Assembly (NCBI GenBank): GCA_918797485.1
Contig: CAKKNE010000004.1
Span: forward strand, 3,472,001 to 3,536,000
DNA length: 64,000 nucleotides
Source: Pelagomonas calceolata
Taxonomy: Eukaryota
Direction of reading: 5' to 3'
Shown: positions 47,747 to 64,000 of the stretch, piece after piece
Layout of the letters: each line of letters starts with the position of its first letter
How positions within the stretch are numbered: the first letter of the stretch is position 1
Translations under genes and position numbers: made by a program
Notes under the pieces: model-generated
Told to the model about the DNA's origin: nothing
The model's input: the letters and a program-made list of their open reading frames with translations, nothing else
Databases searched by the model: none

Positions 47747-49267
47747 TCAGGGATGCGCACTCGTATGAACGCACGGCACGTCGCCCAACGCCTCCGTCAT
47801 CGGCCGCGTGATGTCCAGCCGGAAGCCGTGCATGTTGTCGCCGTCGGCGCAGGCGGCGCCCGGACGGGGCACGACGTTCAGGCACCGGACGACGTTCGAG
47901 CAGCCGGGCACGCTCCTCACATCTATCCCCGTCGCGACGACGCCGCACGGCGTCGACTGCGAGCAGTGGAGCATCGCGGCGACGCCGGACGTTTGCCATC
48001 CGACGATACCGGACACTTTCACGTCCGACACCGCGACGGCGTCCGTCTCGTTCGCACAGACCCCGGGATGCTGACTCTCGGGGCAGTAGAATTGATCGAG
48101 CACGAGCGGATGGTAAACGCCGCGCACGTCGAGGTTCGAGAACGTGACGTTGCGCACGCGGCCGCGGCCACCCTGCCACGTCTTCACGCGGGCCGCGTTC
48201 GACGTCCGATAGAAGCGGACGTTCGCGATCAAGACGTCCTCCACGGACTGCTCCGTGTGGCGCTCGCCGAGGCTTCCAATCGATAGTCCGTGGCCCTTGT
48301 GGAAGAGGCCCCCCAGCACCTGGACGCGCCGCGAGCCCTCCTTGATGGCCACGTTGTCGTCTCCCGTCGAGACGTGGCACTTGCTGATGGTGACGTCGGA
48401 CGAGGCCAGCACGTCGACGCCGTCCGTGTTGACGCTCCCGGGCGGCGTCGCAATACGCAGTCGGTCCAGGGTGACGCGCTCCGAGTCCAGCACGACCACG
48501 TGATAAAACGGCGACTCGACCAGAGACAGGTACCGCACGGCGCAGTCGCGCGATTCCCGAATCACCAGCAGCGCCGGCGCCCGGACCTCGGGTCGTACCT
48601 TCCTCAGCGCCCACCACGGCTGGCCCTGCCCTTGGATGGTCCCGCGCCCCGATATGACGATAGCACGGCAGCGCCTCAGTTCCAGAAACGCGTACCGCAT
48701 ACGCTGCCGCTCCGCCGACAACGCGGAATCCTCCCGCGGCGGCGGCGGCCAGCGTTCCATGGGAGGCGCCCGCACCGTGCCGTCGATGCGGATCTCCAGG
48801 TCGGTCTCATCGACCAGCTCTATTGGCGACAGCAAAAAGGTATGGCCCGCGGGCAAATGCACGACTGCATTTGTCTTGCCCCGCGCCGCGGCGACGGCAG
48901 CTTCGAAAGCAGCTCTGTCGTCCACGACGCCGTCGCCCTTGGCGCCGTGGTCCATGACGCTAATCATCGCCGTGTGACTGCTCCCGGCTGCCCGTGCGCG
49001 CTCTTCGTCGTGCGCGCGCGCGTCCTTGGCATACGCCGCGTCCGCCTTGGCGAGCCACTGCTGCGTCCGATCGGCGATTTCCACGATCTTCTGCTTGTAA
49101 GAGTCCACGAGATCCTCCATGCCCGCATCGCGCGACACTTTGAGGATCAAGTCTTTTCGCGTGACCCGATCTCTGGCGCGGACCAGGACCGTGTCGCGCT
49201 GCTCGTGGTTGTGCGGGCGCGCTGCTGCTGCGGCGACGGCCACCAGCGTTAGCGCTCTATGCATCAT
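47747..49267 (-). CDS. GH28 polygalacturonase-like, paralog B (tandem duplicate)
   Basis: Same motifs as paralog A, with long near-identical DNA tracts. Confidence 0.92.
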   Translation of the reverse strand: MMHRALTLVAVAAAAARPHNHEQRDTVLVRARDRVTRKDLILKVSRDAGMEDLVDSYKQKIVEIADRTQQWLAKADAAYAKDARAHDEERARAAGSSHTAMISVMDHGAKGDGVVDDRAAFEAAVAAARGKTNAVVHLPAGHTFLLSPIELVDETDLEIRIDGTVRAPPMERWPPPPREDSALSAERQRMRYAFLELRRCRAIVISGRGTIQGQGQPWWALRKVRPEVRAPALLVIRESRDCAVRYLSLVESPFYHVVVLDSERVTLDRLRIATPPGSVNTDGVDVLASSDVTISKCHVSTGDDNVAIKEGSRRVQVLGGLFHKGHGLSIGSLGERHTEQSVEDVLIANVRFYRTSNAARVKTWQGGRGRVRNVTFSNLDVRGVYHPLVLDQFYCPESQHPGVCANETDAVAVSDVKVSGIVGWQTSGVAAMLHCSQSTPCGVVATGIDVRSVPGCSNVVRCLNVVPRPGAACADGDNMHGFRLDITRPMTEALGDVPCVHTSAHP

Positions 49268-49531: not shown

Positions 49532-50170
49532 ATGGCCGACGAGCCCGAGTGGGCGCGGCAGCCCCCGCCGGCGCCGCCGCCGGCCGCGCCGCCCGCGGCG
49601 GCGAGCCCCGAGCCGGACTGGGCCAAGCCGGCGCCCGCTCCATCAAACGAGCCCGCGTGGGCGCGGACGCCGGCGCCGGCCCCCGCGCCTTCATTGAATG
49701 AGCGCGTCGGCGCCGCCGTTGTCGGCGCGGCGATTGGGGCAGCCAAGCCGCCCATGGACATGTCCTTCTTAAATTTACCGAAGCCGATCCTCGCGATGCG
49801 GTTCATGAACGTGCTGAGCGCCTTCATGCTGAGCTTTTGCGCTATTACCAAACTCATGACCACCGATAGATTGGCGCCGGGCATCGTGGCGGTCTACATC
49901 TTTATTTTTGCCGTGGCCATTTTCCTCTTCGAGCTGCACATTCCGCAATTAGGAAGGGGCCTCGCGGAGAATTTGGGGTTCCTCTACTCGGCGATGGGCC
50001 GCTTCTGGTTCCTGATTCTGGTGGCTATATTGGCAGCGTCGGGCCACGGTTTGTGGGGCATCTTCACGGTCATTCTGGTGGTGTGCACGGCCGTCGTGAA
50101 CGCGCTCATCTGGTGGAAGTACCCCGACTACGAGAAGGGCTGCCGCATCGTCGACCTCGGCCAGGCCTGA
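49532..50170 (+). CDS. COPI-associated/TVP15-like small multi-TM protein
   Basis: Y..IFA..IFLFE...ENLGFLYSAMGRFWF pattern; about 4 TM helices; Pro-rich N-terminus with EPxWA repeats. Confidence 0.75.
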   Translation: MADEPEWARQPPPAPPPAAPPAAASPEPDWAKPAPAPSNEPAWARTPAPAPAPSLNERVGAAVVGAAIGAAKPPMDMSFLNLPKPILAMRFMNVLSAFMLSFCAITKLMTTDRLAPGIVAVYIFIFAVAIFLFELHIPQLGRGLAENLGFLYSAMGRFWFLILVAILAASGHGLWGIFTVILVVCTAVVNALIWWKYPDYEKGCRIVDLGQA

Positions 50171-50217: not shown

Positions 50218-51588
50218 CTAGCCTCGGAGGAGCACGTTCTCGACGGCCTGGAGCTCCTCCGCGGGGTCCTCCTCGGTCTGCACTGGTTTTGTTTCAAAAC
50301 CGTCGAAGTGCTTCCGCGCGACGAAGCGGAACGCGATGGCCGTGAGCAGAACAAGTACGGCGCAGAGGAAGAGGACCGCGGGTCGGCTCACGCCTAGATG
50401 GCCCGCGGCGACGAAGAGAAAACCGCCCATCAGGTCACCTACTGCCGTCGTTAAGAGGTAGAGCGCCGAGACGGATGCGCGCATCGCTTCGGGTGCTTTC
50501 TCGTACGAGTACTCGAGCCCGGTCACGCTCACCAGGATCTCGGCGACAGTGATGAGAAAGAGCTGCGGAAGCTGCCAGAGGATGTTCACGCGCTGCCCGC
50601 TGTTCACCCTCAGGTCCAGGAGACCAGCGACGACGAACGCGGCCGCCGCGACAATCATGCCGGCCATCATGCGCCATGGCGCGCGCGTGCTGACGCCCCG
50701 TCTTTCCAATGCCGGATATATAACCTTTTCGAAGAGCGGCAGGAGCAGCAGGATGAGGACGGGGTTGATGACGCCCATCGTCTCCGGTTGTAGTTTGCCC
50801 TTGAAGTTCTTCATCTCCGACGCCTGGACGACCCAGATGCTCCCTTGCTGGTCGTAGAGCATCCAGAACACGGGCAGCAGGACCATCACCTCGCCAATCG
50901 ACCGCAGCTCCCGGGCGTCGTCGTCGTCCGGCACGCGCCACGCGCACGCGCGCCAGATGGCCGCCGGCACGCCGACGCCGCCCTCGCGCGGCGGCAGCAT
51001 CGTGTATTTGCGCCGCCCTCCAATAAAAACGGCGAGGGCCGCCGCGAGGAGGACCGCGGGCACGGCGAACGCAGCAGCGTAGCCAAAAATGGCCCGCATG
51101 GCCGGGACGAGGAGGTACGAGAAGACCGAGCCGAGGTTTATGGACGCGTAGAACACGGCGAAGTACCGCCGCGTCGCCTCGCTCGCGTCGCCGATCGCGT
51201 TGTCGATTTGATCCGCACCGAACGTGGACACGCAGGGCTTGATGCCACCCGTACCCAAGCCGACGAACACCAGGGCTACGATCGTCCAGGGAAGCGACGC
51301 CACGGCGGCCGCGGCCACGAGGACCCACAGGCCGACGGCGTAGACGCTGCCGAAGCGCATGATCGTCGCGTAACGGCCCCAGCGCTCGTCCGACAGCCAA
51401 GCGCCGACCAACGGCGCGGCGTAGGCGAGCGCCGAGGTGAACATGAAGCCAGCCGCCGCGCTGCTCTCGCGCATGTCTAGGCTGACGAAATAGAGAGTGA
51501 GGATTGCTCGAAAACCGTAGTACGAGAACCGCTCCATGCCTTCCATAAGGATGATGCGCCAAACATGCGCAGGCGTGCCTGCCAGCAT
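50218..51588 (-). CDS. POT/PTR (SLC15) proton-dependent oligopeptide transporter
   Basis: EGMERFSYYG, GAWLSD..WGRY, GTGGIKPCVSTFGADQ, FYASINLGS, GLEYSYEKAP. Confidence 0.95.
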   Translation of the reverse strand: MLAGTPAHVWRIILMEGMERFSYYGFRAILTLYFVSLDMRESSAAAGFMFTSALAYAAPLVGAWLSDERWGRYATIMRFGSVYAVGLWVLVAAAAVASLPWTIVALVFVGLGTGGIKPCVSTFGADQIDNAIGDASEATRRYFAVFYASINLGSVFSYLLVPAMRAIFGYAAAFAVPAVLLAAALAVFIGGRRKYTMLPPREGGVGVPAAIWRACAWRVPDDDDARELRSIGEVMVLLPVFWMLYDQQGSIWVVQASEMKNFKGKLQPETMGVINPVLILLLLPLFEKVIYPALERRGVSTRAPWRMMAGMIVAAAAFVVAGLLDLRVNSGQRVNILWQLPQLFLITVAEILVSVTGLEYSYEKAPEAMRASVSALYLLTTAVGDLMGGFLFVAAGHLGVSRPAVLFLCAVLVLLTAIAFRFVARKHFDGFETKPVQTEEDPAEELQAVENVLLRG

Positions 51589-53486: not shown

Positions 53487-55418
53487 ATGGCCACGCGCGT
53501 GAGCGCGACGGCGCCTACGTCGTGTCGACGACGATGGTGGCCCCGGGCCCTGCTTATGATAGCGGCGGCGGCGGCGCAGTGCGACTATAATGACGATTCC
53601 TGCATCGTCATCGTCGCCTGCGGCGACTCGATCACGCGCGGCGGTCACGGCACGAAGGGCTGGGACTGGCCGGAGCTCGTCCAGGACGAGCTGGGCGACA
53701 ATTATCTGGTCATCAATAGAGGCGTGAGCGGCTCGACGCTCACGGACTTTACGGACCGAGCCTGGATCGACACGTCGCACGGCGAGGAGGCGTTGGAGGA
53801 CTCGCGCAAGGCGAACGCGTTTGTTGTTGCTTTAGGTACGAACGACGCGAAAAGTGGGGGCGACGAGCCCATCTGGCCGCTCCTTGGGCCCCACGAGTTC
53901 GCGGACGCCTACGAGCACGTCCTCGATGAGCTGAGGGACGCCGCCGACGAGGAGCCCATCATGTTCGTGGCGACGCCCATCCCGCAGTCGGAAGATTCGG
54001 GGAAATGGCCGGACGTCGACATCCTGAACGTCGAGATGCCGCCCATCATCGAGGGCATCGCTCATGATAATGATGCTATTCTAATTGATGCGCACCTCGC
54101 GGACTTCTACGACGCAAATGGTGATGTAGACCCCCAGTTTTATGATGATTCTGTGCACCCGAACGACGCCGGCTACAAGCTCATCGCCTCGGCCGTCGCG
54201 GACGCGATCCGACAACAGTTCCCGGCGCCGTCGCCGCGGCCGACGCATAAACCGAGCTACGCGCCGACCGTGCGGCCGTCGTCACGGCCTTCGCCGCGGC
54301 CTACATTTATACCGTCGCCCGCGCCGACGCCGCGGCCGACGACGCCCGCGCCGTCGCCGGCGCCTTCATTCAGGCCAACCCAAAAGCCGTCGCCCGCGCC
54401 GTCCTCGATACCGACGGCGGCGCCCACGCCGGTACCGCGCGCCTCGTCCAATAAACAGGACGAGCCCGTCTCGGCCGCGGGCGCCGCGGTCGGCACCGTG
54501 CTGGGCGCGTTCGTGCTCGTGGGGTCCTACGTCTTGGTCCAGGGCGTCCGGAAGCTGCGGCGGAAGAAGGAGCGCGTCCAGGGCGCGACGGACTCGCCGC
54601 CGCCGCCGCCGTCGTTCTCGCCGCCGGGCGACGAGAAGGGGCTCCTGTCGTCGCCGGACAACTGGTGGCGCAAGCGTTTGGCGGGAGGCACGTCGCGCTA
54701 CGAGCATAGTGATGATGACGTGCGCATCACGGTCGACTTTGGCGGGCGCCGCGTGCCGGTGGCGAACGCACGGTCGAACTCGCCAGCCGGTTTTGGGAAG
54801 TGGTTCCGGCCGCTGTCGCCGCGGCGCTTTCTCTGGAAGAACTCCTTCGATGCGAGTGAGGCGGCCTGCCCGACGCCCGACGGCGAGGAGGTCAAGGAGG
54901 AGTACCCTGATGATCGTGTCAAGCGGCCGACGCCGCGGCGGCCCTTGGGGGAGGCCTCCGACGTCTTCGCCATCGAGATGTCGCCGCGGTCGCACTCGCC
55001 GACGCCCACCGATAGTAGTTTTGCCGAGTCGCTCGGCGAGTCGGACGTGGTGGTGGTGGCGCTCGACGTCGACTCGCAGAGCGCGCGCTCGGAGTCGCCT
55101 CCCTTGGAACCGTCGCCCGCCACGCCGCCGACGTCGCCTCTCCAAAAACTCATGAAGTCGGTCTCGAACAGCATGCTGGGCAAGAACAGCTGGGCGAAGA
55201 CGCAGGCGTCGCCGGCGGCGCAGCGCGCGCGGCGGCGCGCGTGGTCCGAGACCGACGACTTCTCGCGCGGCACGCCGTCGCCGCCGGCCTCCGACGACGT
55301 CAGCTCCGAGGCGAGCTCCGTGCCGCCGCCGCCGGCGGCGCCGTCGCCGCAGCCGCCCTTCGGGTCCCCGGCGCGGTTTCCGCAACCCATCTTCGCCGAC
55401 GACTCGGACGATCTCTAG
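53487..55418 (+). CDS. SGNH/GDSL esterase ectodomain + Pro/Thr/Ser stalk + TM + low-complexity tail
   Basis: GDSIT, NRGVSG, LGTND, DSVHPN..GY; PTxxPS repeats; TM AVGTVLGAFVLVGSYVLV. Confidence 0.88.
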   Translation: MATRVSATAPTSCRRRWWPRALLMIAAAAAQCDYNDDSCIVIVACGDSITRGGHGTKGWDWPELVQDELGDNYLVINRGVSGSTLTDFTDRAWIDTSHGEEALEDSRKANAFVVALGTNDAKSGGDEPIWPLLGPHEFADAYEHVLDELRDAADEEPIMFVATPIPQSEDSGKWPDVDILNVEMPPIIEGIAHDNDAILIDAHLADFYDANGDVDPQFYDDSVHPNDAGYKLIASAVADAIRQQFPAPSPRPTHKPSYAPTVRPSSRPSPRPTFIPSPAPTPRPTTPAPSPAPSFRPTQKPSPAPSSIPTAAPTPVPRASSNKQDEPVSAAGAAVGTVLGAFVLVGSYVLVQGVRKLRRKKERVQGATDSPPPPPSFSPPGDEKGLLSSPDNWWRKRLAGGTSRYEHSDDDVRITVDFGGRRVPVANARSNSPAGFGKWFRPLSPRRFLWKNSFDASEAACPTPDGEEVKEEYPDDRVKRPTPRRPLGEASDVFAIEMSPRSHSPTPTDSSFAESLGESDVVVVALDVDSQSARSESPPLEPSPATPPTSPLQKLMKSVSNSMLGKNSWAKTQASPAAQRARRRAWSETDDFSRGTPSPPASDDVSSEASSVPPPPAAPSPQPPFGSPARFPQPIFADDSDDL

Positions 55419-57596: not shown

Positions 57597-58179
57597 TATT
57601 GCACATAAAACGTATCAATCGAAGTCACATACGCCCCCGCGGTGGCGTCCAAGGACGGAATTCCCCTTGCCGGGACGCCACCGACTGCGTGTGCGGGGAC
57701 GCGTGGAACTCGTAGTCGCGGCGATGGCGTGGCGGTGGGGTTGACGCCACGTACGCCCGCCGCGACGCCATCGCCGTGCGGGTGGGGCAGGACTACTCCC
57801 GTCGTTCCCGCGCCATCGCCGCGACACGGACGGGGGCACTGGGAGCGGACCCGCGCCGACACCGCGCCCGCAGACGTGTCCCGGAGTAAGAGGACCCGTA
57901 TGCCCGGGCCCGCGAGAGGTGCCGCGTCGAGCGGCCAAGGCTAGTACCTTCGAACTGAGGGCCGGCCGCTGCTCCAGCGCCGATGAAAATCGCAGCCGGC
58001 CGAGGCCGTTGCGGAGCCATGGATCCTACAGCTGCGTAGGAGCCTTGCGTGAGCAGCGCTCGCGCACCACCGGGCAGCCTTTCCGCCGCGGACGCCGGCA
58101 AGCCACTCTCTGCAGTGTTGCCAGGCAAGCAGCAGACGCAAAGCGCGAACGCGCAGTAAGGGGCACATCAATCAACAAG

Positions 58180-61100
58180 ATGGCCCACACAACAAAAAAA
58201 ATGAAGCTGAAGCGCACGATGCGCGAGGTGCTCGACGACGAGGCGTCGGCGATGAGCGTCGAAGAAGAGCTCATGAACAACGTGGTGAAGATCAATGGGG
58301 TGTGGCAGTTCCGCTCGACCCAGAAGATCTCGAAGCGCCAGAAGGAGGCCCAGGTCCAGCGCATCCAGGAAGAAAAAGCAGAGGAACAGCGCCAATTGGC
58401 GCTGCTCAAGGCGGAAGAAAGTGATGATGAGACGTCCTATCCCGAGGTGCAGCCCGAGGACCTGAACGTCGGCGAGACCTTGGTTCCGGCTCGATTGCAT
58501 CCGGACTACGAGAACTATGTGCGGTTGGCCATCGCCGGAGTAGATAGGTATGATTTGAGGATAATCATGCGCAAGGACGGCCTGGACACGGGCACCCTGA
58601 AAAGGCCGGAGAAGAAAGTCATCCTGGGCAAGAAGATGGTCGAGGCCACGGCCAAGAAGCAGAAACAAGCAGAGCTCGAGGAGACCCCTGAAGAGATCGC
58701 CGCGGCCGAGCGCAAGTTGAAAGCGGTCACGATGCGCAAAGTCACGCGCGTGAAGATGGAAGCTATTGAGTCCATACAACAGCAGCAGGTCGACCTGATG
58801 CGACTCGCTGATAAGCTCGTGGAGCACTACGGGAAGGTCTCGAATTTTGTGGGGATCGAGGCCTTTGGGGACACGGGGATTGGCTACTCCATGCAGATCG
58901 AGGACACGACGATGGTGAAAGGTATCACGGCGTTGTTGTTAGATCACGCCGCGCGCGAGGAAAAAAAGAGGAAAATCTACGCCGCGAAAGATGAAGAAGA
59001 ACTCATGGCGCTGGAGTTCGAGCTAGATAAAAAAGAAGATGATGAAGGCCACGGGAAGGATTTCACGCATGGTAGTCTCATCTACAAGTTGGAGCGCATC
59101 GCGTCGTACATGCAGTACCTCGGGTTCCTAGGTATGTTAGATGTCCCGTGGACGTCTGGTGTCAGGTTGTTCCTAGTCCAAGGCTCCTTCTTCTTGGACT
59201 CGCACATGTGGCCTTTGGTCACGGTTCATCGGTGGATCTGGGAGAGCGGCAAGGTCTACAAAGACGAGGACCATGAAAAAGCGGAGCACGACGCCTACGC
59301 TGCCGGTTTTGAGACCCAGCCTGGTGATGATCGAGCGGGCGGCGCGCCGGCTGTGGGTGGTGGTCGGGGCGGTGGCCGCGGTGGAAGATATTTGATAGGA
59401 GACTTCTACCTGATCGACTTGTACTTCTACCGTGACGTTACAAGATACTGCTATAGCTTAGCATTCTCGGCCATCCTCCTCGTGGCCTTCTTCTTCCTCT
59501 GGCAGGTCGACGACTATACCGATCCCAGGTTTACGGATCGGTGGCGGCTCATGCACATCGAGCACTGGTGGTCGTTAGGTGTTCCGAGGTCGTTCCTCTA
59601 CTTCCTAGGGTACTCTATAGTACTGGTAGTAGCACCAGCCATAGCCCTGGAGTACACGTACGGCACCGCGGGCGAAGGGTCGGAATACATCGCCGAAGGC
59701 CCGGGGAAAGAGAAAGGTGTAAATAGTGGTATGAACCGGTCCATGAAGCACGCGACGACCATGCTCGTTGCCGGTTTGTCGTTGACCGTATACGTCTGGT
59801 TCTTGTATATCTTCTTCACAACCATGATGCGCCGAGTGTTCATCGCCAAGACGAAGCATGCGAAGGCGTATTCATCAGTAGTACTGTTGAAGAACACCTT
59901 GAAGTGGAAGGCTACTCTATTATTAGTGCTAGTGTTCCTGAACTACATGCCGACGTGCTTGTATGTGTTGGGGGGCATGGTACCTGTTTATTCCTCAAAA
60001 GTCTGGGCCGAGACTCTGAAGTACGACCCCTACTACCGGGAGGCGGACTACACCATGCCGGACATGGTGCCGCCCGACTACGGGTCGAACATGAAGGATA
60101 GGTACTGGCTCAACCCCGACCCTGGTTTGGAGCCCGTCGATCCTCATATAAGGCCCTTGAATCGCTACCAGACGCGGAAGACCCAGCGGAAAGAGAATAT
60201 CTATGGCTACACGGGAGGCGGCGACGCGACGCCCTGGGAGCCCGTCAACTACGCGGGGTATCGCCACTATCCGTGTTATTATTTATCCTTCCCGCCGGAG
60301 ATCGCTTCCGAGCCGGAGTCGTCCCACCACTCGGACCAGGGCGTCGTGCGCAAGGACACGGCGATCTATGGCGGGCGGCTGCGGCCGCCCACCTTGACAG
60401 ACGACCCGGGCCTCGACATTCTGGAAGCGACGGATTCTAATGGAGAAAAGTACTGGTACGAGAACCGGCCCGAGGAGGAGAGCTTCAATCGCGACGGGAC
60501 GAAGAAACCCATCAAAAGGTGGGCCTACGACCCGCGATACCGGACGGACTGGCGGAACGAGACCGCATTGCGAAAGTATCCGACCTACGACTGGTCCCGG
60601 GCGTCGGGGCGCGCGGGCGGGCGGGATCGGGAGTTCTGGCGCTGCGTCTATAAGAAGCGCTGCAGCCACGAGTGGAAGGACTGGTGCGCGGCCAAAGAGA
60701 AGGGGCCGTCCGTCATCACGCCCATGTCGTGCCGCCCAGAACCTTTAGGATGGGCGCAGTACGAGCCGCAGGAACGCAAGCCGCACCAGTGTAATAGAAG
60801 AGTGGACTGCATGGACGTGGCTGGGGTGTTGTTATATACGACGTCTTGTCTAGCGGCCGTGTTTTATGTCCTGGGCACACCACTACTCGTGAACTACCTC
60901 ATCCAGCTCACGAGAGCGCAATTGTACGAGTGCGAGTGGTGGACGAACTACGAGACGGCCTGGCGGCGCTTCAACGTCGTTTGTGTGGAATGTGAAGCGT
61001 GGTCCATCGTCCAAGTGGTCTTGGCGGTCGGGGAGGTGTGGAAGGAGCAGGCCGTCCAGGACTTCGTGGAGTACCGGAGGAAGGGGCCCGCCTTCGTCAA

Positions 61101-64000
61101 GTGGGCGCTGGGGTGGGCCTTCTACATCATCTATTTGGTGGCCTGCTGCCCGTTTCGATGCGTCCTGAAACTCTGCTGTTCCATCGACCCCGACAAGGAG
61201 CGAAAGAAGCGCAAGTACCAGGCCATGATCTCCGACGCGTTGGATGGGCCTTCTAGAGTGGCCCGCGTCCTGAAGTCGACGGGAGCTTACGTGTTTGCCG
61301 AGGACTCGAAGGAGGACGACGTGTCGACGCTAGGCGGCGACTACGTCGACCCCTTCGCGGAAAAACCGAAGCCCGAGGGGTTCAGGCAAAAGGCCAAGTA
61401 CTACGCCGTTTGTTTTGTCACTTCCATATATAACGGCCTCGCCTTCGTGCTGTGCTGCCTGGCCAAGTGGCTCGGCGGCAAACATCTCGCCCGAGACAAG
61501 GAAGAGGACGAGGAGGAGGTCGAAGTGGACCCGAACAAGCCTTTTAGTCTGGAGGATCTCATCGACAAGGACGAGTGGGAGCCGCCGCGGACCGACGAAG
61601 GATCGATCTGGATGCGTTTTAGAGGATACAACTACAAGATCGCGGTCGCGCAGTGGTTCGACAACATCATCATGTTCGCGGTCGTGTGGTCGGTCCTCGC
61701 CCTGGACTTCATGCCCACGCGGCCCATCATGGAGGGTCTGCTCGGGCGGCACGGCGACACGGCCTACGCCGCGAAGTACTGGTTGAAGATCTACAACCGG
61801 AACAACGCTTATTTAGATATGCGGAACTACTCGGTCACCGACGCCCTGTCCATGGGGGTAGACATACCTTATGTGGGGCGCTCCGCAAATATCACGACCT
61901 GGGCCGAGAAGGAGAAGCACGCGGACTACTGGTTCGGCGACCCAGTCACGGGCGAGAGCGCGGCGTACGGCGACGACGATTTTCATGAAGGTGACCCGCG
62001 CAAGCCGGACGGGTACTGCGGCTTCGGCGGGGAGTCGAACTGCATGTTGTATTTCTCGGTCCAATGGATCGCCGGCGTCGTCTTCTGGTTCGAGGTCCAG
62101 ATCAAGTGGACGGGCTGGGGCAAGACGATGTATTTTAAGGACTACTTCAACTGGCTCGACGTCTTTTTGCTGGGCTTCTGGGTCATGAACACGCTGATGT
62201 TGGTGTTGTTCGCGGGCGGGTCGGGGGGCGGCGGCCTCGGGGCCCTCAAATCCCTAAAGGCGCTGAAGTCGCTCAAGTCGCTCAAATCCCTGAAGGCCCT
62301 GAAGTCGCTCAAGTCGCTTAAAGTACTGCGATTATTGAAATGCGCGAAGTACATCGACCCGTTGATGTACCAGATCAAGCGCTGGTTCCTGCGGTGGATC
62401 GCCGACGACAAATTGGCGTCCAAGGAACTATTAGCGAAGAAGAAGGAGACCATGTCCGAGTGGCGCGCGGAGCGGTCCCTCCCGGCGAAGATCGAGAACC
62501 TGAAGAAGGGCTTCCAGCACGCGAAGCGCGAGTACTCGGTCTGCTTCGACGAGTTCGAGCGGGATCATGAATTACAAATTACGAACTTTGAGGCCGTCGT
62601 CGACACGGCCGCTTTATCATATCTAGTGGCGCAGTTCAAGAGTAACGCGCCGTTCTGGCGCCTCGTGTTGCTGAGCGAGACGGCGGTGTTCTGCGTCATC
62701 GTGACGTGGCTGAAGGCGTCGCAGCCGCCCTGGGCGATATGTCTCGGTGGAGCTTTGGTTAGATCGTTGTACGCCTTCGCTACCTTCATGAAGAAGCCCT
62801 ACCTCTACGTGCGCGAGGGGCAGGTCGACGTGCAGACGAGGACGGTCACGATCCTCTTGATGATCTTCGGCGCCATCCTCGACAAGGATTTGCGAGATCA
62901 GCGAGGCACGAAACCCGAACACGAAGCGGCCTACGCCGAGCACAAGGCAAAATTTGCGACGGAGTCCGCGCGGACCGCGATCAACACCTGGGCGTTGTTG
63001 CTCATGGCCTTTAACTGGTTACGGTTGGCCTACCTGTGCCGCTTCCACGAGATGCTGCGGGACTTCCGGGACTTTTTAGTATTCCAGGCCGACGCGCAAG
63101 TTGTCAGTCTGTTAATCTCGTACGTGGACTGGAAGTGCTACGCCTTCGAGGACTCGAATTATGGATTGCAGATGATGCGGCAGTGGGACGCGTTAATAGA
63201 CAGACACCAGGCGACGATGTACTCCGTGCCCTGGTTATCCCCGCGACCGGCGAATTTGCTGTCCTGGTACGAGACGCTCGTGGTCATCCGGTGGGCGGCG
63301 ATCCGAGACATAAGGGTGACGACGATGCGGACGCCGACGGGGCAGTGCATCTTGCACTCGGCCATGCTGAAGGGCGAGCCCGAGGTCGTGGCGTGGTTGC
63401 TGTACAACCATCCCGAGTTACTGGCGGTCACGGACGACCAGCGCGACTCGCCCGTGATTATTTGTTTGAAGGAGCTAAGTGCTACATTACTCAGACACCA
63501 CAAGAAGCCCTCGGACAAGACGGCCTGGAAGCGCGCGAAACTAGCGGAAATTTTATTGAGCGACCAGGTCCAGCAGTTTAGGGTTCCGTGGAATTTGACG
63601 CATTTCCGGGGTCTCGGCGACATCGCCGTGCCGCTGCTGGGCGAGCTGGCCCAGCAGATGGCGCTGGCCTTCAACCTGACGCCGCCGGCGGGCTTCGTGC
63701 GCATCTCGAAGTGGCACAAGTACCCCGGCGACATTCCCAACTTCCTGGCGCAGTGCTACGTGGCTTGTCGCGATAGTGTGGATGCGCCGCGATGCGAACT
63801 GGGCGACCTGGGCCGGGTCACGTTCCAGGCCCTGATGCGCGCGCTGGAGATGCGCCAGACGACGATCACGATCTCGTCGAACTTTTTTAATTGTTATCCG
63901 ATTAGTATCGTGCGCATCGACGCTCGAGCGAATAGATTAGATTCAGAAACAGCATCGTACGCCGCGCACGCCGTGTCCCGCAATTCGGCTTTGACATATT
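58180..64000 (+). CDS. Giant multi-pass membrane protein with voltage-sensor-like module, ankyrin-like and LRR-like segments (3' partial)
   Basis: I found no stop in the frame from ATG 58180 to the window end (~1940 codons, read by eye); absent from the ORF track. S1-S4-like segments at 61651-62349, ankyrin-like at ~63331-63465. Confidence 0.88.
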   Translation, partial: MAHTTKKMKLKRTMREVLDDEASAMSVEEELMNNVVKINGVWQFRSTQKISKRQKEAQVQRIQEEKAEEQRQLALLKAEESDDETSYPEVQPEDLNVGETLVPARLHPDYENYVRLAIAGVDRYDLRIIMRKDGLDTGTLKRPEKKVILGKKMVEATAKKQKQAELEETPEEIAAAERKLKAVTMRKVTRVKMEAIESIQQQQVDLMRLADKLVEHYGKVSNFVGIEAFGDTGIGYSMQIEDTTMVKGITALLLDHAAREEKKRKIYAAKDEEELMALEFELDKKEDDEGHGKDFTHGSLIYKLERIASYMQYLGFLGMLDVPWTSGVRLFLVQGSFFLDSHMWPLVTVHRWIWESGKVYKDEDHEKAEHDAYAAGFETQPGDDRAGGAPAVGGGRGGGRGGRYLIGDFYLIDLYFYRDVTRYCYSLAFSAILLVAFFFLWQVDDYTDPRFTDRWRLMHIEHWWSLGVPRSFLYFLGYSIVLVVAPAIALEYTYGTAGEGSEYIAEGPGKEKGVNSGMNRSMKHATTMLVAGLSLTVYVWFLYIFFTTMMRRVFIAKTKHAKAYSSVVLLKNTLKWKATLLLVLVFLNYMPTCLYVLGGMVPVYSSKVWAETLKYDPYYREADYTMPDMVPPDYGSNMKDRYWLNPDPGLEPVDPHIRPLNRYQTRKTQRKENIYGYTGGGDATPWEPVNYAGYRHYPCYYLSFPPEIASEPESSHHSDQGVVRKDTAIYGGRLRPPTLTDDPGLDILEATDSNGEKYWYENRPEEESFNRDGTKKPIKRWAYDPRYRTDWRNETALRKYPTYDWSRASGRAGGRDREFWRCVYKKRCSHEWKDWCAAKEKGPSVITPMSCRPEPLGWAQYEPQERKPHQCNRRVDCMDVAGVLLYTTSCLAAVFYVLGTPLLVNYLIQLTRAQLYECEWWTNYETAWRRFNVVCVECEAWSIVQVVLAVGEVWKEQAVQDFVEYRRKGPAFVKWALGWAFYIIYLVACCPFRCVLKLCCSIDPDKERKKRKYQAMISDALDGPSRVARVLKSTGAYVFAEDSKEDDVSTLGGDYVDPFAEKPKPEGFRQKAKYYAVCFVTSIYNGLAFVLCCLAKWLGGKHLARDKEEDEEEVEVDPNKPFSLEDLIDKDEWEPPRTDEGSIWMRFRGYNYKIAVAQWFDNIIMFAVVWSVLALDFMPTRPIMEGLLGRHGDTAYAAKYWLKIYNRNNAYLDMRNYSVTDALSMGVDIPYVGRSANITTWAEKEKHADYWFGDPVTGESAAYGDDDFHEGDPRKPDGYCGFGGESNCMLYFSVQWIAGVVFWFEVQIKWTGWGKTMYFKDYFNWLDVFLLGFWVMNTLMLVLFAGGSGGGGLGALKSLKALKSLKSLKSLKALKSLKSLKVLRLLKCAKYIDPLMYQIKRWFLRWIADDKLASKELLAKKKETMSEWRAERSLPAKIENLKKGFQHAKREYSVCFDEFERDHELQITNFEAVVDTAALSYLVAQFKSNAPFWRLVLLSETAVFCVIVTWLKASQPPWAICLGGALVRSLYAFATFMKKPYLYVREGQVDVQTRTVTILLMIFGAILDKDLRDQRGTKPEHEAAYAEHKAKFATESARTAINTWALLLMAFNWLRLAYLCRFHEMLRDFRDFLVFQADAQVVSLLISYVDWKCYAFEDSNYGLQMMRQWDALIDRHQATMYSVPWLSPRPANLLSWYETLVVIRWAAIRDIRVTTMRTPTGQCILHSAMLKGEPEVVAWLLYNHPELLAVTDDQRDSPVIICLKELSATLLRHHKKPSDKTAWKRAKLAEILLSDQVQQFRVPWNLTHFRGLGDIAVPLLGELAQQMALAFNLTPPAGFVRISKWHKYPGDIPNFLAQCYVACRDSVDAPRCELGDLGRVTFQALMRALEMRQTTITISSNFFNCYPISIVRIDARANRLDSETASYAAHAVSRNSALTY

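What the first reader, a model, noticed from the sequence alone, without database searches (positions are those of the whole stretch)
58180..64000. Unlisted giant membrane protein: voltage-sensor module inserted in a multi-TM scaffold, followed by ankyrin- and LRR-like segments
Seen: an uninterrupted + frame of >=1940 codons missing from the ORF track. It contains S1-like QWFDNIIMFAVVWSVLALDF (61651-61710), S2-like WIAGVVFWFEVQIK (~62065-62106), S3-like YFKDYFNWLDVFLL (~62131-62172) and a basic S4. Established: the S2 FxxExxxK and S3 NxxD patterns are voltage-sensor hallmarks. No pore loop is evident after S4. The flanking TM segments (MQYLGFLGMLDVPW; LSYLVAQFKSNAPFWRLVLL; KPYL) resemble the Flc/Pkd2 TRP-like multi-TM domain, apparently split by the sensor. 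An ankyrin-like GQCILHSAMLKGEPEVVAWLL and an LRR-like start follow. Inference: a possibly new class of voltage-regulated membrane signalling or transport protein.
Basis: partly seen in the sequence, partly recalled or inferred. Interest (0 to 1): 0.8.

Follow-up and report, generated by a model that had tools for sequence, protein, structure and literature searches.

The report
Voltage sensor plugged into algal protein
A marine alga expresses a giant membrane protein in which a sodium/calcium-channel-type voltage sensor without a pore is inserted into an algal membrane protein whose relatives in brown algae lack it, which likely puts that protein under control of membrane voltage.

Summary
Confirmed. 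Window 58180-64000+ is a real, transcribed, unspliced gene of a pelagophyte-like alga: 1940 codons in the window, about 2780 aa in full. Its order is a charged N-terminus, six predicted membrane helices, a Nav/Cav-type S1-S4 voltage sensor with no pore, four more helices, an ankyrin-like unit and about 20 or more LRRs. The sensor matches Nav/Cav channels by sequence (E about 1e-6) and by predicted fold in an ortholog (Z 13.5). Of 41 family members spanning the site, 11 (one pelagophyte clade) carry it. The other 30 (brown algae, a chrysophyte, unnamed) lack it and keep both flanks. The 10-helix core folds confidently, has no clear solved relative, and weakly resembles fungal Flc/Pkd2 (Pfam TRP). 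The sensor is under purifying selection. Its S4 carries 12 basic residues, 11 of them lysine here but 7-8 of 9 arginine in Chrysophaeum-type orthologs. Most likely S4 pulls on a conserved cytosolic helix that leads into the core, as in SLC9C1. That coupling and the core's output (Ca2+ entry or signalling) are inferred, not shown. It is not a canonical channel, Hv channel, VSP or SLC9C1, and my literature searches found no description.

The parts
58180..64000 (+). Gene, 5' 1940 codons of an estimated 2780-2790-aa protein; no introns in the window
   Evidence: reads and contigs; full-length orthologs of 2295-2476 aa; whole ortholog locus L001
58336..58599 (+). Charged N-terminal region with a weak CCDC53 (WASH subunit) C-terminal-like helical motif, aa 53-140
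   Evidence: Pfam PF10152 E 0.0026, below cut-off; also in P0005, P0009, P0010, P0011; not reported for the sensor-less full-length relatives scanned
59080..59973 (+). Core helices TM1-TM5 (predicted), aa 301-598
   Evidence: hydropathy; ortholog models; conserved across sensor-bearing and sensor-less members
59977..60819 (+). Outer (inferred extracellular or luminal) loop with two conserved cysteines C699 and C877 and lineage-specific inserts
   Evidence: Cys in 17 of 19 and 18 of 19 rows; inserts visible
60823..60909 (+). Core helix TM6, followed by cytosolic helices (inferred) leading to the insertion site
61645..61713 (+). Voltage sensor S1; serine, not aspartate, at mid-helix
   Evidence: aligns with Nav1.7 S1
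61750..62040 (+). About 97-aa insert in the S1-S2 outer loop, absent from Aureococcus and Chrysophaeum-type orthologs; exonic
   Evidence: 66% identical in L001; covered by reads without joints
62050..62205 (+). Voltage sensor S2 (F-x-x-E-x-x-x-K) and S3 (N-x-x-D)
   Evidence: S2 motif in 11 of 12 rows, S3 motif in 12 of 12
62242..62349 (+). Voltage sensor S4: 12 basic residues at every third position (11 Lys, 1 Arg)
   Evidence: 36 of 36 residues identical in ortholog L001 while 21 of 36 codons differ
62461..62613 (+). Conserved cytosolic helix and beta-hairpin between S4 and TM7; candidate coupling element (inferred)
   Evidence: present in sensor-less relatives; region 1391-1478 is 94% identical in L001, the highest of 10 regions
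62656..63036 (+). Core helices TM7-TM10 with invariant E1500 and P1540 and near-invariant R1554; the part with weak Flc/Pkd2 (Pfam TRP) likeness
   Evidence: E 29 of 29, P 29 of 29, R 28 of 29; TRP hits in P0010 (E 6.7e-4) and P0079 (E 0.024)
63088..63789 (+). Cytosolic conserved helical region with an ankyrin-like unit at about 63337-63492
   Evidence: Ank_5 E 0.003; Ank_4 E 1.8e-5 in relative P0043; family-wide
63790..64000 (+). Start of an LRR_6-type solenoid that continues beyond the window
   Evidence: alignment; LRR_6 in all 7 orthologs; 20-22 pattern matches per protein in 5 proteins

Best explanation
This is an expressed algal membrane protein in which a Nav/Cav-type voltage sensor without a pore is inserted into a predicted cytosolic helical stalk of a predicted 10-helix core, and the sensor likely switches that core, which is probably a Flc/Pkd2-like Ca2+-entry or signalling unit with an ankyrin-LRR tail. 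Shown: the gene, its transcription, the domain order, the sensor hallmarks, the lack of a pore half, the sensor's absence from 30 relatives, and purifying selection on S4. Predicted: the folds and the 14-helix topology with both ends cytosolic. Inferred: a voltage change moves S4; S4 pulls on the conserved helix (aa 1428-1465) that runs into TM7 with its invariant glutamate; this changes the state of the core and of the ankyrin-LRR tail. That would be SLC9C1-like coupling through cytosolic helices rather than S4-S5 gating of a tetrameric pore. Sensor-less orthologs would be gated by another cue, such as stretch or a ligand.
For: Sensor by sequence and fold: ortholog model residues 560-700 match CatSper1 at Z 13.5, rmsd 3.0, 127 aligned; Cav1.2 Z 12.7, rmsd 3.0, 120 aligned; Ci-VSP Z 11.2, rmsd 3.6, 132 aligned. 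S2 F/E in 11 of 12 and S3 D in 12 of 12 rows; 9-12 S4 charges. The sensor is kept in all 11 members of one clade. S2-S4 is 90% and the post-S4 linker 94% identical to L001, against 62-73% for the variable loops, while 40-55% of codons for identical residues differ. In the sensor-less model the site is the tip of a helical hairpin between TM6 and TM7 (secondary structure). Core likeness to Pfam TRP. Fission-yeast Pkd2 passes Ca2+ on membrane stretch (PMC9727806, abstract read). SLC9C1's S4 is embedded in intracellular helices (PMC13095418, passages read).
Against: No functional data. S4 here is 11 Lys and 1 Arg, and gating charges are predominantly Arg (PMC13095418 section 18). The outer S2 acidic position is mostly not acidic (Glu in P0003 only, read by eye), so the sensor may be stiff, shifted or parked. 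The TRP likeness is below Pfam's cut-off, seen in 2 of 51 relatives and not in the window protein. The core has 10 predicted helices and no Ig-like luminal domain, whereas Pkd2 is predicted to have 9 plus that domain (10.1101/2022.08.11.503631, passages read). The folds are of orthologs P0005 and P0019, not of the window protein. I could not inspect model coordinates, so S4-core contacts are unknown. Thirty relatives work without any sensor.
Confidence: 0.45

Rival explanations
1. The sensor works but the core carries no ions: the protein is a voltage-dependent receptor or scaffold whose output is binding of partners by the ankyrin-LRR tail and the CCDC53-like N-terminus.
For: No pore half after S4; about 1100 aa of ankyrin-LRR tail kept in every full-length member; few conserved polar residues inside the predicted helices (R306, Q312, T1535, E1500, R1554). 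The channel status of the Flc/Pkd2 family is itself called putative in the papers seen.
Against: No enzymatic or nucleotide-binding output domain found by Pfam; an invariant intramembrane Glu and Arg are also what a transport site would need.
Confidence: 0.25
2. The S1-S4 unit is retained for a non-voltage role: a fixed structural, lipid-binding or docking module, for example for assembly with a four-domain channel, or a pH or anionic-lipid sensor.
For: Lys-dominated S4 in the window protein, L001, Aureococcus and P0014 (1 Arg of 10-12). TMEM266 is a sensor-fold protein with no known channel function (PMC13095418). S4 length varies from 9 to 12 charges.
Against: Six Chrysophaeum-type orthologs keep 7-8 Arg, and the every-third-residue spacing and the S2/S3 countercharges are kept across the clade.
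Confidence: 0.2
3. The sensor itself conducts ions (protons as in Hv1, or an omega-type leak), with the core as carrier and regulator.
For: Pore-less sensor of Nav/Cav ancestry, as Hv channels are (PMC13095418); replacing S4 arginines can open gating-pore currents.
Against: No Asp or Glu in mid-S1 in 12 of 12 rows, serine in all 12 as in Nav1.7 (read by eye); S4 has 9-12 charges against 3 in Hv1.
Confidence: 0.07
4. The fusion is an assembly or gene-model artefact, or a decaying recent insertion.
For: Ortholog model P0002 lacks S2, so gene models in this family can be wrong.
Against: Single DNA and probable-RNA contigs span the stretch without gaps; the same order is found in 10 other proteins and locus L001; strong purifying selection.
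Confidence: 0.02

Closest known systems
SLC9C1 (sperm Na+/H+ exchanger with a voltage sensor)
   Same: One Nav-like S1-S4 without a pore, attached to a separate multi-helix membrane domain, with S4 running into cytosolic helices (PMC13095418, passages); SLC9C1 chains are among the top, non-significant Foldseek rows of the model (E 0.009).
   Different: No Na+/H+ exchanger or cyclic-nucleotide domain by Pfam. The sensor sits inside the membrane domain (6 helices before, 4 after), not after it. The tail is ankyrin-LRR.
Four-domain Nav/Cav channels (source of the sensor)
   Same: S1-S4 sequence and fold. The sensor profile hits their repeats with best E 3e-12 to 3e-19, and the third of four hits scores best in 6 of 11 channels with four hits (these channels were retrieved by the query itself).
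   Different: One sensor only, with no S5-P-S6; Ion_trans matches stop at profile position 111-119 of 241.
Fungal Flc/Pkd2 family (Pfam PF06011 TRP)
   Same: Weak match of TM7-TM9 to profile positions 280-386; Atlas feature likeness of the sensor-less core.
   Different: Below cut-off; 10 predicted helices against 9; no N-terminal Ig-like domain; long ankyrin-LRR tail; no sensor was mentioned in the Pkd2 passages read (0 hits for 'voltage').
Voltage-sensing phosphatase, Hv1 and TMEM266
   Same: A single pore-less sensor (Ci-VSP Z 11.2, rmsd 3.6, 132 aligned).
   Different: No phosphatase domain; no mid-S1 Asp; not a stand-alone sensor.
Sensor-less orthologs: Ectocarpus CBJ33045.1, Cladosiphon, Scytosiphon, Epipyxis proteins
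   Same: Same core, linker, ankyrin-like and LRR order.
   Different: No S1-S4 and no CCDC53-like hit; annotated only as hypothetical or leucine-rich-repeat proteins.

Membership tests
Voltage-sensor domain (S1-S4) | Four-helix sensor fold | tested here: met
   Model of ortholog P0005: four helices at pLDDT mostly 80-95 (58 at the start of S4); Z 13.5, rmsd 3.0, 127 aligned to CatSper1; 42 chains at Z 8 or more, the top 36 rows all voltage-sensor proteins
Voltage-sensor domain (S1-S4) | S2 aromatic plus acidic residue, S3 acidic residue | tested here: met
   11 of 12 and 12 of 12 rows; criteria from PMC13095418
Voltage-sensor domain (S1-S4) | S4 basic residue at every third position, mostly Arg | tested here: inconclusive
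   Spacing met (9-12 charges). Arg-dominant in 6 of 12 rows, mixed in 1, Lys-dominant in 5 including the window protein
Voltage-sensor domain (S1-S4) | S4 moves with voltage (gating current) | not testable with these tools
   needs electrophysiology
6TM/24TM voltage-gated channels (Nav, Cav, Kv, EukCat, TPC, canonical TRP) | S5-pore loop-S6 directly after S4 | tested here: not met
   Ion_trans covers only positions up to 111-119 of 241 in all sensor-bearing proteins scanned; about 100 hydrophilic residues follow S4, and the next helices belong to the family core
Hv1 proton channels | Aspartate in the middle of S1 | tested here: not met
   0 of 12 rows; serine in all 12 (read by eye, register); criterion from PMC13095418 section 15
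Voltage-sensing phosphatase | PTEN-like phosphatase domain after S4 | tested here: not met
   no such Pfam hit in the window protein or full-length orthologs
SLC9C1 | 13-helix Na+/H+ exchanger domain and cyclic-nucleotide-binding domain | tested here: not met
   no such Pfam hit; predicted helix order is 6 core, 4 sensor, 4 core
Flc/Pkd2 (PF06011 TRP) | Pfam TRP match above the gathering score | tested here: not met
   best 19.0 bits against a cut-off of 28.5; 2 of 51 relatives, none in the window protein
Flc/Pkd2 (PF06011 TRP) | Same transmembrane fold | tested here: inconclusive
   No library of predicted cellular structures on hand; Atlas features score 0.90, 182 of 256 shared, with clusters carrying TRP on 25% of members
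Flc/Pkd2 (PF06011 TRP) | Signal peptide and Ig-like luminal domain before the helices | tested here: not met
   The N-terminal 300 aa are highly charged with no hydrophobic segment; feature from 10.1101/2022.08.11.503631
Flc/Pkd2 (PF06011 TRP) | Ca2+ permeation on stretch | not testable with these tools
   needs reconstitution

The most novel reading that the evidence does not exclude
A new class of voltage-sensor-coupled protein beside channels, phosphatases and SLC9C1: a channel-derived sensor grafted into a membrane core of unsolved fold turns an ancestral voltage-independent algal receptor or channel into a voltage-gated one, and in one sub-lineage does so with an almost all-lysine S4.
Probability: 0.4. 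Interest if true: 0.87.

Novelty: new variant of a known kind. Interest (0 to 1): 0.68.

Why it matters
The review read here lists only channels, phosphatases, SLC9C1 and Hv1/TMEM266 as users of S1-S4 sensors (PMC13095418). This family would add another kind of partner. It comes with natural controls: orthologs with no sensor (Ectocarpus), with an Arg-rich S4 (Chrysophaeum) and with a Lys-rich S4 (this gene, Aureococcus). That makes two questions directly testable: how a sensor is grafted onto a new membrane protein, and whether lysines can serve as gating charges. It also points to an unstudied electrical-signalling component in marine picoalgae and a membrane core with no clear solved relative.

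Tried and rejected
No whole genome is held, so the 3' end was inferred from read contigs and orthologs. Pfam on the whole window protein found only the weak CCDC53 hit; the sensor appears only when scanned alone. Foldseek gave nothing at E 0.001 or better for either model. The sensor-less core model (pLDDT 80.9, pTM 0.80) had no match above background: best Z 7.2, rmsd 4.1, 110 aligned, among 48,161 chains, none at Z 8 or more; best Z 6.6 in the second look. At 596 residues a match can be missed, so this does not show a new fold. A profile of TM7-TM10 plus tail found nothing in the PDB by sequence (best E 0.15). The Atlas gave no usable hit for the window's own membrane region. The idea that S4 is a DNA slippage repeat was rejected: codons vary and differ from the ortholog while the protein is identical. 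The idea that the large inserts are unspliced in-frame introns was rejected. One 136-base skip in a metatranscriptome contig (X17, 62840-62977, non-canonical ends, 24-base side) was set aside as likely from another organism. A flagellar location was considered, but I found no evidence: one search listed five papers, seen as listings only. Literature searches: six accessions, 0 papers; 'voltage sens' + 'leucine-rich repeat' + 'pelagophy', 0; 'voltage sens' + PF06011, 0; searches listed no paper on this architecture (listings only; 20 of 102 and 12 of 2713 shown). Most subscription papers and all supplements were not searched; proteome supplements could list the Ectocarpus ortholog. Earlier scan findings: none. 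The careful tree did not finish; the quick tree was used.
Full report
Observation. The + frame is open from 57745 to the window end. From ATG 58180 it gives 1940 codons without a stop, with GC at third positions mostly 0.7-0.9. The quoted motifs are present, at the stated places where given. No whole genome is held. Four polyA raw-read runs, all from one sample and so not independent, cover 30, 29, 30 and 30 of 30 bins, almost entirely on one strand, with no joints. A contig of 8559 nt from run X1 (RNA by guess) matches 57987-64000 without gaps and extends 2545 nt further. The 94% identical fragment P0008 has 1070 aa from the residue matching M1716, which predicts 2785 aa and needs 2538 further nt. 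Metagenome locus L001 carries a whole ortholog, 73-94% identical, with two introns. The closest named relatives are from Aureococcus anophagefferens (57-59%) and Chrysophaeum taylorii (48%), so the source is inferred to be a pelagophyte alga.

The sensor. Residues 1141-1407 hit Nav1.1-1.8, Cav2 and Cav3 chains, best E 8e-7. That the best-matching stretch is repeat III of Nav1.7 is my recalled numbering. Pfam Ion_trans matches at E 3e-9 over profile positions 33-114 of 241, and orthologs stop at 111-119, so the pore half is absent. An AlphaFold2 model of Chrysophaeum P0005 residues 298-1215 (44-row alignment, pLDDT 79.0, pTM 0.73) has four helices at 574-711. They match CatSper1 (Z 13.5, rmsd 3.0, 127 aligned), Cav1.2 (12.7, 3.0, 120), Cav2.2 (12.6, 3.1, 129) and Ci-VSP (11.2, 3.6, 132). 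Among 12 sensor sequences the S2 F-x-x-E-x-x-x-K motif is in 11 (the P0002 model lacks S2) and S3 N-x-x-D in 12. S4 has 9-12 basic residues at every third place. The window protein has 12, of which 11 are Lys. L001, both Aureococcus models and P0014 also have a single Arg, P0004 has 5, and six Chrysophaeum-type proteins have 7-8. Against L001, S4 is 36 of 36 identical while 21 of 36 codons differ. S2-S4 is 90% and the post-S4 linker 94% identical, against 62-73% in variable loops. Mid-S1 is Ser in all 12 rows, as in Nav1.7, so the Hv1 aspartate is missing.

The insertion. An exhaustive HMMER search with the last 800 residues gave 154 proteins at E 0.001 or better, 150 listed. Further searches added pelagophyte-type and brown-algal members. 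Using module profiles built from 8 sensor-bearing proteins, 41 of 203 proteins held span both flanks of the site. Eleven have the sensor; these include the window protein, the 7 others used to build the profile, and one cluster-mate of P0010. Thirty lack it: 22 are closely related brown-algal-type sequences (named: Ectocarpus, Cladosiphon, Scytosiphon, Hapterophycus) and 8 are others (named: the chrysophyte Epipyxis). Their best sensor-profile E is 4.4 or worse, although the same profile finds repeats of unrelated four-domain channels at best E 3e-12 to 3e-19. A profile-free check on 22 of the 41 agrees: 9 of 9 sensor-bearing loops have 3-4 hydrophobic segments, both motifs and a run of 9-12 basic residues; 13 of 13 others have 0-1 segments, neither motif and runs of at most 3. 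In P0019 the loop is only about 91 aa. A quick maximum-likelihood tree of the shared C-terminal core and ankyrin region (43 rows, sensor excluded) puts the 11 sensor-labelled rows on one side of a branch (SH-aLRT 99). Only 7 of the 20 rows of the chrysophyte-like group span the site, and near-duplicate brown-algal rows were left out. The tree is unrooted, and pelagophytes and the brown-alga/chrysophyte side are separate ochrophyte branches (recalled). So one gain in pelagophytes and one loss in the others are not yet told apart. A gain at some point is likely, because the sensor's relatives are channel repeats and the Atlas look-alikes of the core are 317-442 aa proteins.

The core. Both models predict ten helices outside the sensor: six before and four after. 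A sensor-less member folds at pLDDT 80.9, pTM 0.80. The known orientation of S1-S4 puts the insertion loop and the C-terminal tail inside the cell and the two-cysteine loop outside (inference). Lys/Arg counts in the flanks mostly agree for TM1-TM8 but not clearly for TM9-TM10. Family-wide conserved residues include R306, Q312, the W-x-x-x-D-Y-T-D loop, C699, C877, W1428, R1429, H1463, D1475, E1500 (29 of 29), P1540 (29 of 29) and R1554 (28 of 29). Pfam TRP (PF06011, the Flc/Pkd2 family) hits TM7-TM9 in 2 of 51 relatives scanned (E 6.7e-4 and 0.024), below cut-off. The Atlas returns for the Ectocarpus core 30 feature hits: 24 in unnamed clusters (top rows 0.90-0.93, mostly oomycete by their few records) and 6 in clusters with TRP on a quarter of members (0.90).

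Tail and head. After TM10 come a conserved helical region, one weak ankyrin-like unit (E 0.003 here; 1.8e-5 in P0043) and an LRR_6 solenoid with 20-22 pattern matches in each of five proteins counted. Database names such as RanGAP reflect only these repeats (inference). A weak CCDC53-like motif lies in the N-terminus of 5 of 8 sensor-bearing proteins with a complete start, and was not reported in the sensor-less full-length proteins scanned.

Mechanism. In the sensor-less model the site is the tip of a helical hairpin between TM6 and TM7. In sensor-bearing proteins S4 is followed within about 40 residues by the family's conserved helix and beta-hairpin, which lead into TM7. This linker is the most conserved of ten regions compared with L001. 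I infer that voltage moves S4, that S4 pulls this helix, and that this switches TM7-TM10 and the tail. SLC9C1 is the working analogue: its sensor lies apart from the transporter and S4 is embedded in intracellular helices (PMC13095418; abstract, passages and sections 15 and 18 read). The output is most likely Ca2+ or cation entry, by analogy with fission-yeast Pkd2 (PMC9727806, abstract only), or else partner binding by the LRRs. I give 0.45 to the coupled-core reading, 0.25 to a pure scaffold, 0.2 to a non-voltage role, 0.07 to conduction through the sensor and 0.02 to artefact. The main evidence against is the Lys-rich S4, the weak outer countercharges, the sub-threshold TRP match and the lack of any assay.

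Comparison and novelty. It works like SLC9C1 or VSP (one sensor, foreign effector) but is a member of neither, nor of Hv or the 6TM/24TM channels. UniRef names the Chrysophaeum protein only 'Ion transport domain-containing protein'. Ten literature searches showed no description of this architecture; they cover open-licence PMC and bioRxiv main texts only, and long result lists were seen in part. Verdict: real, conserved, expressed and apparently undescribed architecture; function untested; interest 0.68.

Noticed in passing
L001:3901-3990 and L001:7178-7303 (same in L002:405-494 and from 3682): The ortholog in the two metagenome loci has two introns that resemble each other (78% over 90 bases) at sites where the window gene has none. 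This looks like introner-type mobile introns (name recalled).
   Followed up: partly
window:62242-62349: S4 has shifted from Arg-rich (Chrysophaeum type, 9 charges) to Lys-rich (this gene and Aureococcus, 11-12 charges) while keeping the three-residue spacing.
   Followed up: partly
window:60007-60819 and 61750-62040: Large aromatic- and charge-rich inserts in predicted outer loops, largely absent from the other orthologs aligned but 62-66% conserved in L001.
   Followed up: partly
window:57682-57776: Short G+C-rich sequence upstream of the gene that matches several other contigs of the same runs (loose ends); probably a small dispersed repeat.
   Followed up: no
window:55782-57596 (+): Upstream neighbour is a SKN1/KRE6-type GH16 beta-glucan protein (E 2e-64), read over ten times more deeply than this gene in runs X21 and X23.
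   Followed up: no
window:47747-55418: Other neighbours: GH28 pectin hydrolase (47747-49267, -), COPI-associated protein (49532-50170, +), POT/PTR2 peptide transporter (50218-51588, -), GDSL lipase-like protein (53487-55418, +). No nucleotide match of the neighbours to L001 or L002.
   Followed up: no
window:59061 and 62274: Two third-position read differences (3 of 7 reads in X23; 7 of 15 in X21), both synonymous by codon position; the second lies in the S4 repeat and starts at only 2 places.
   Followed up: partly
proteins P0023-P0053 (chrysophyte-like group): These sensor-less relatives carry a long acidic insertion of several hundred residues after the ankyrin-like unit that pelagophyte and brown-algal members lack.
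   Followed up: no
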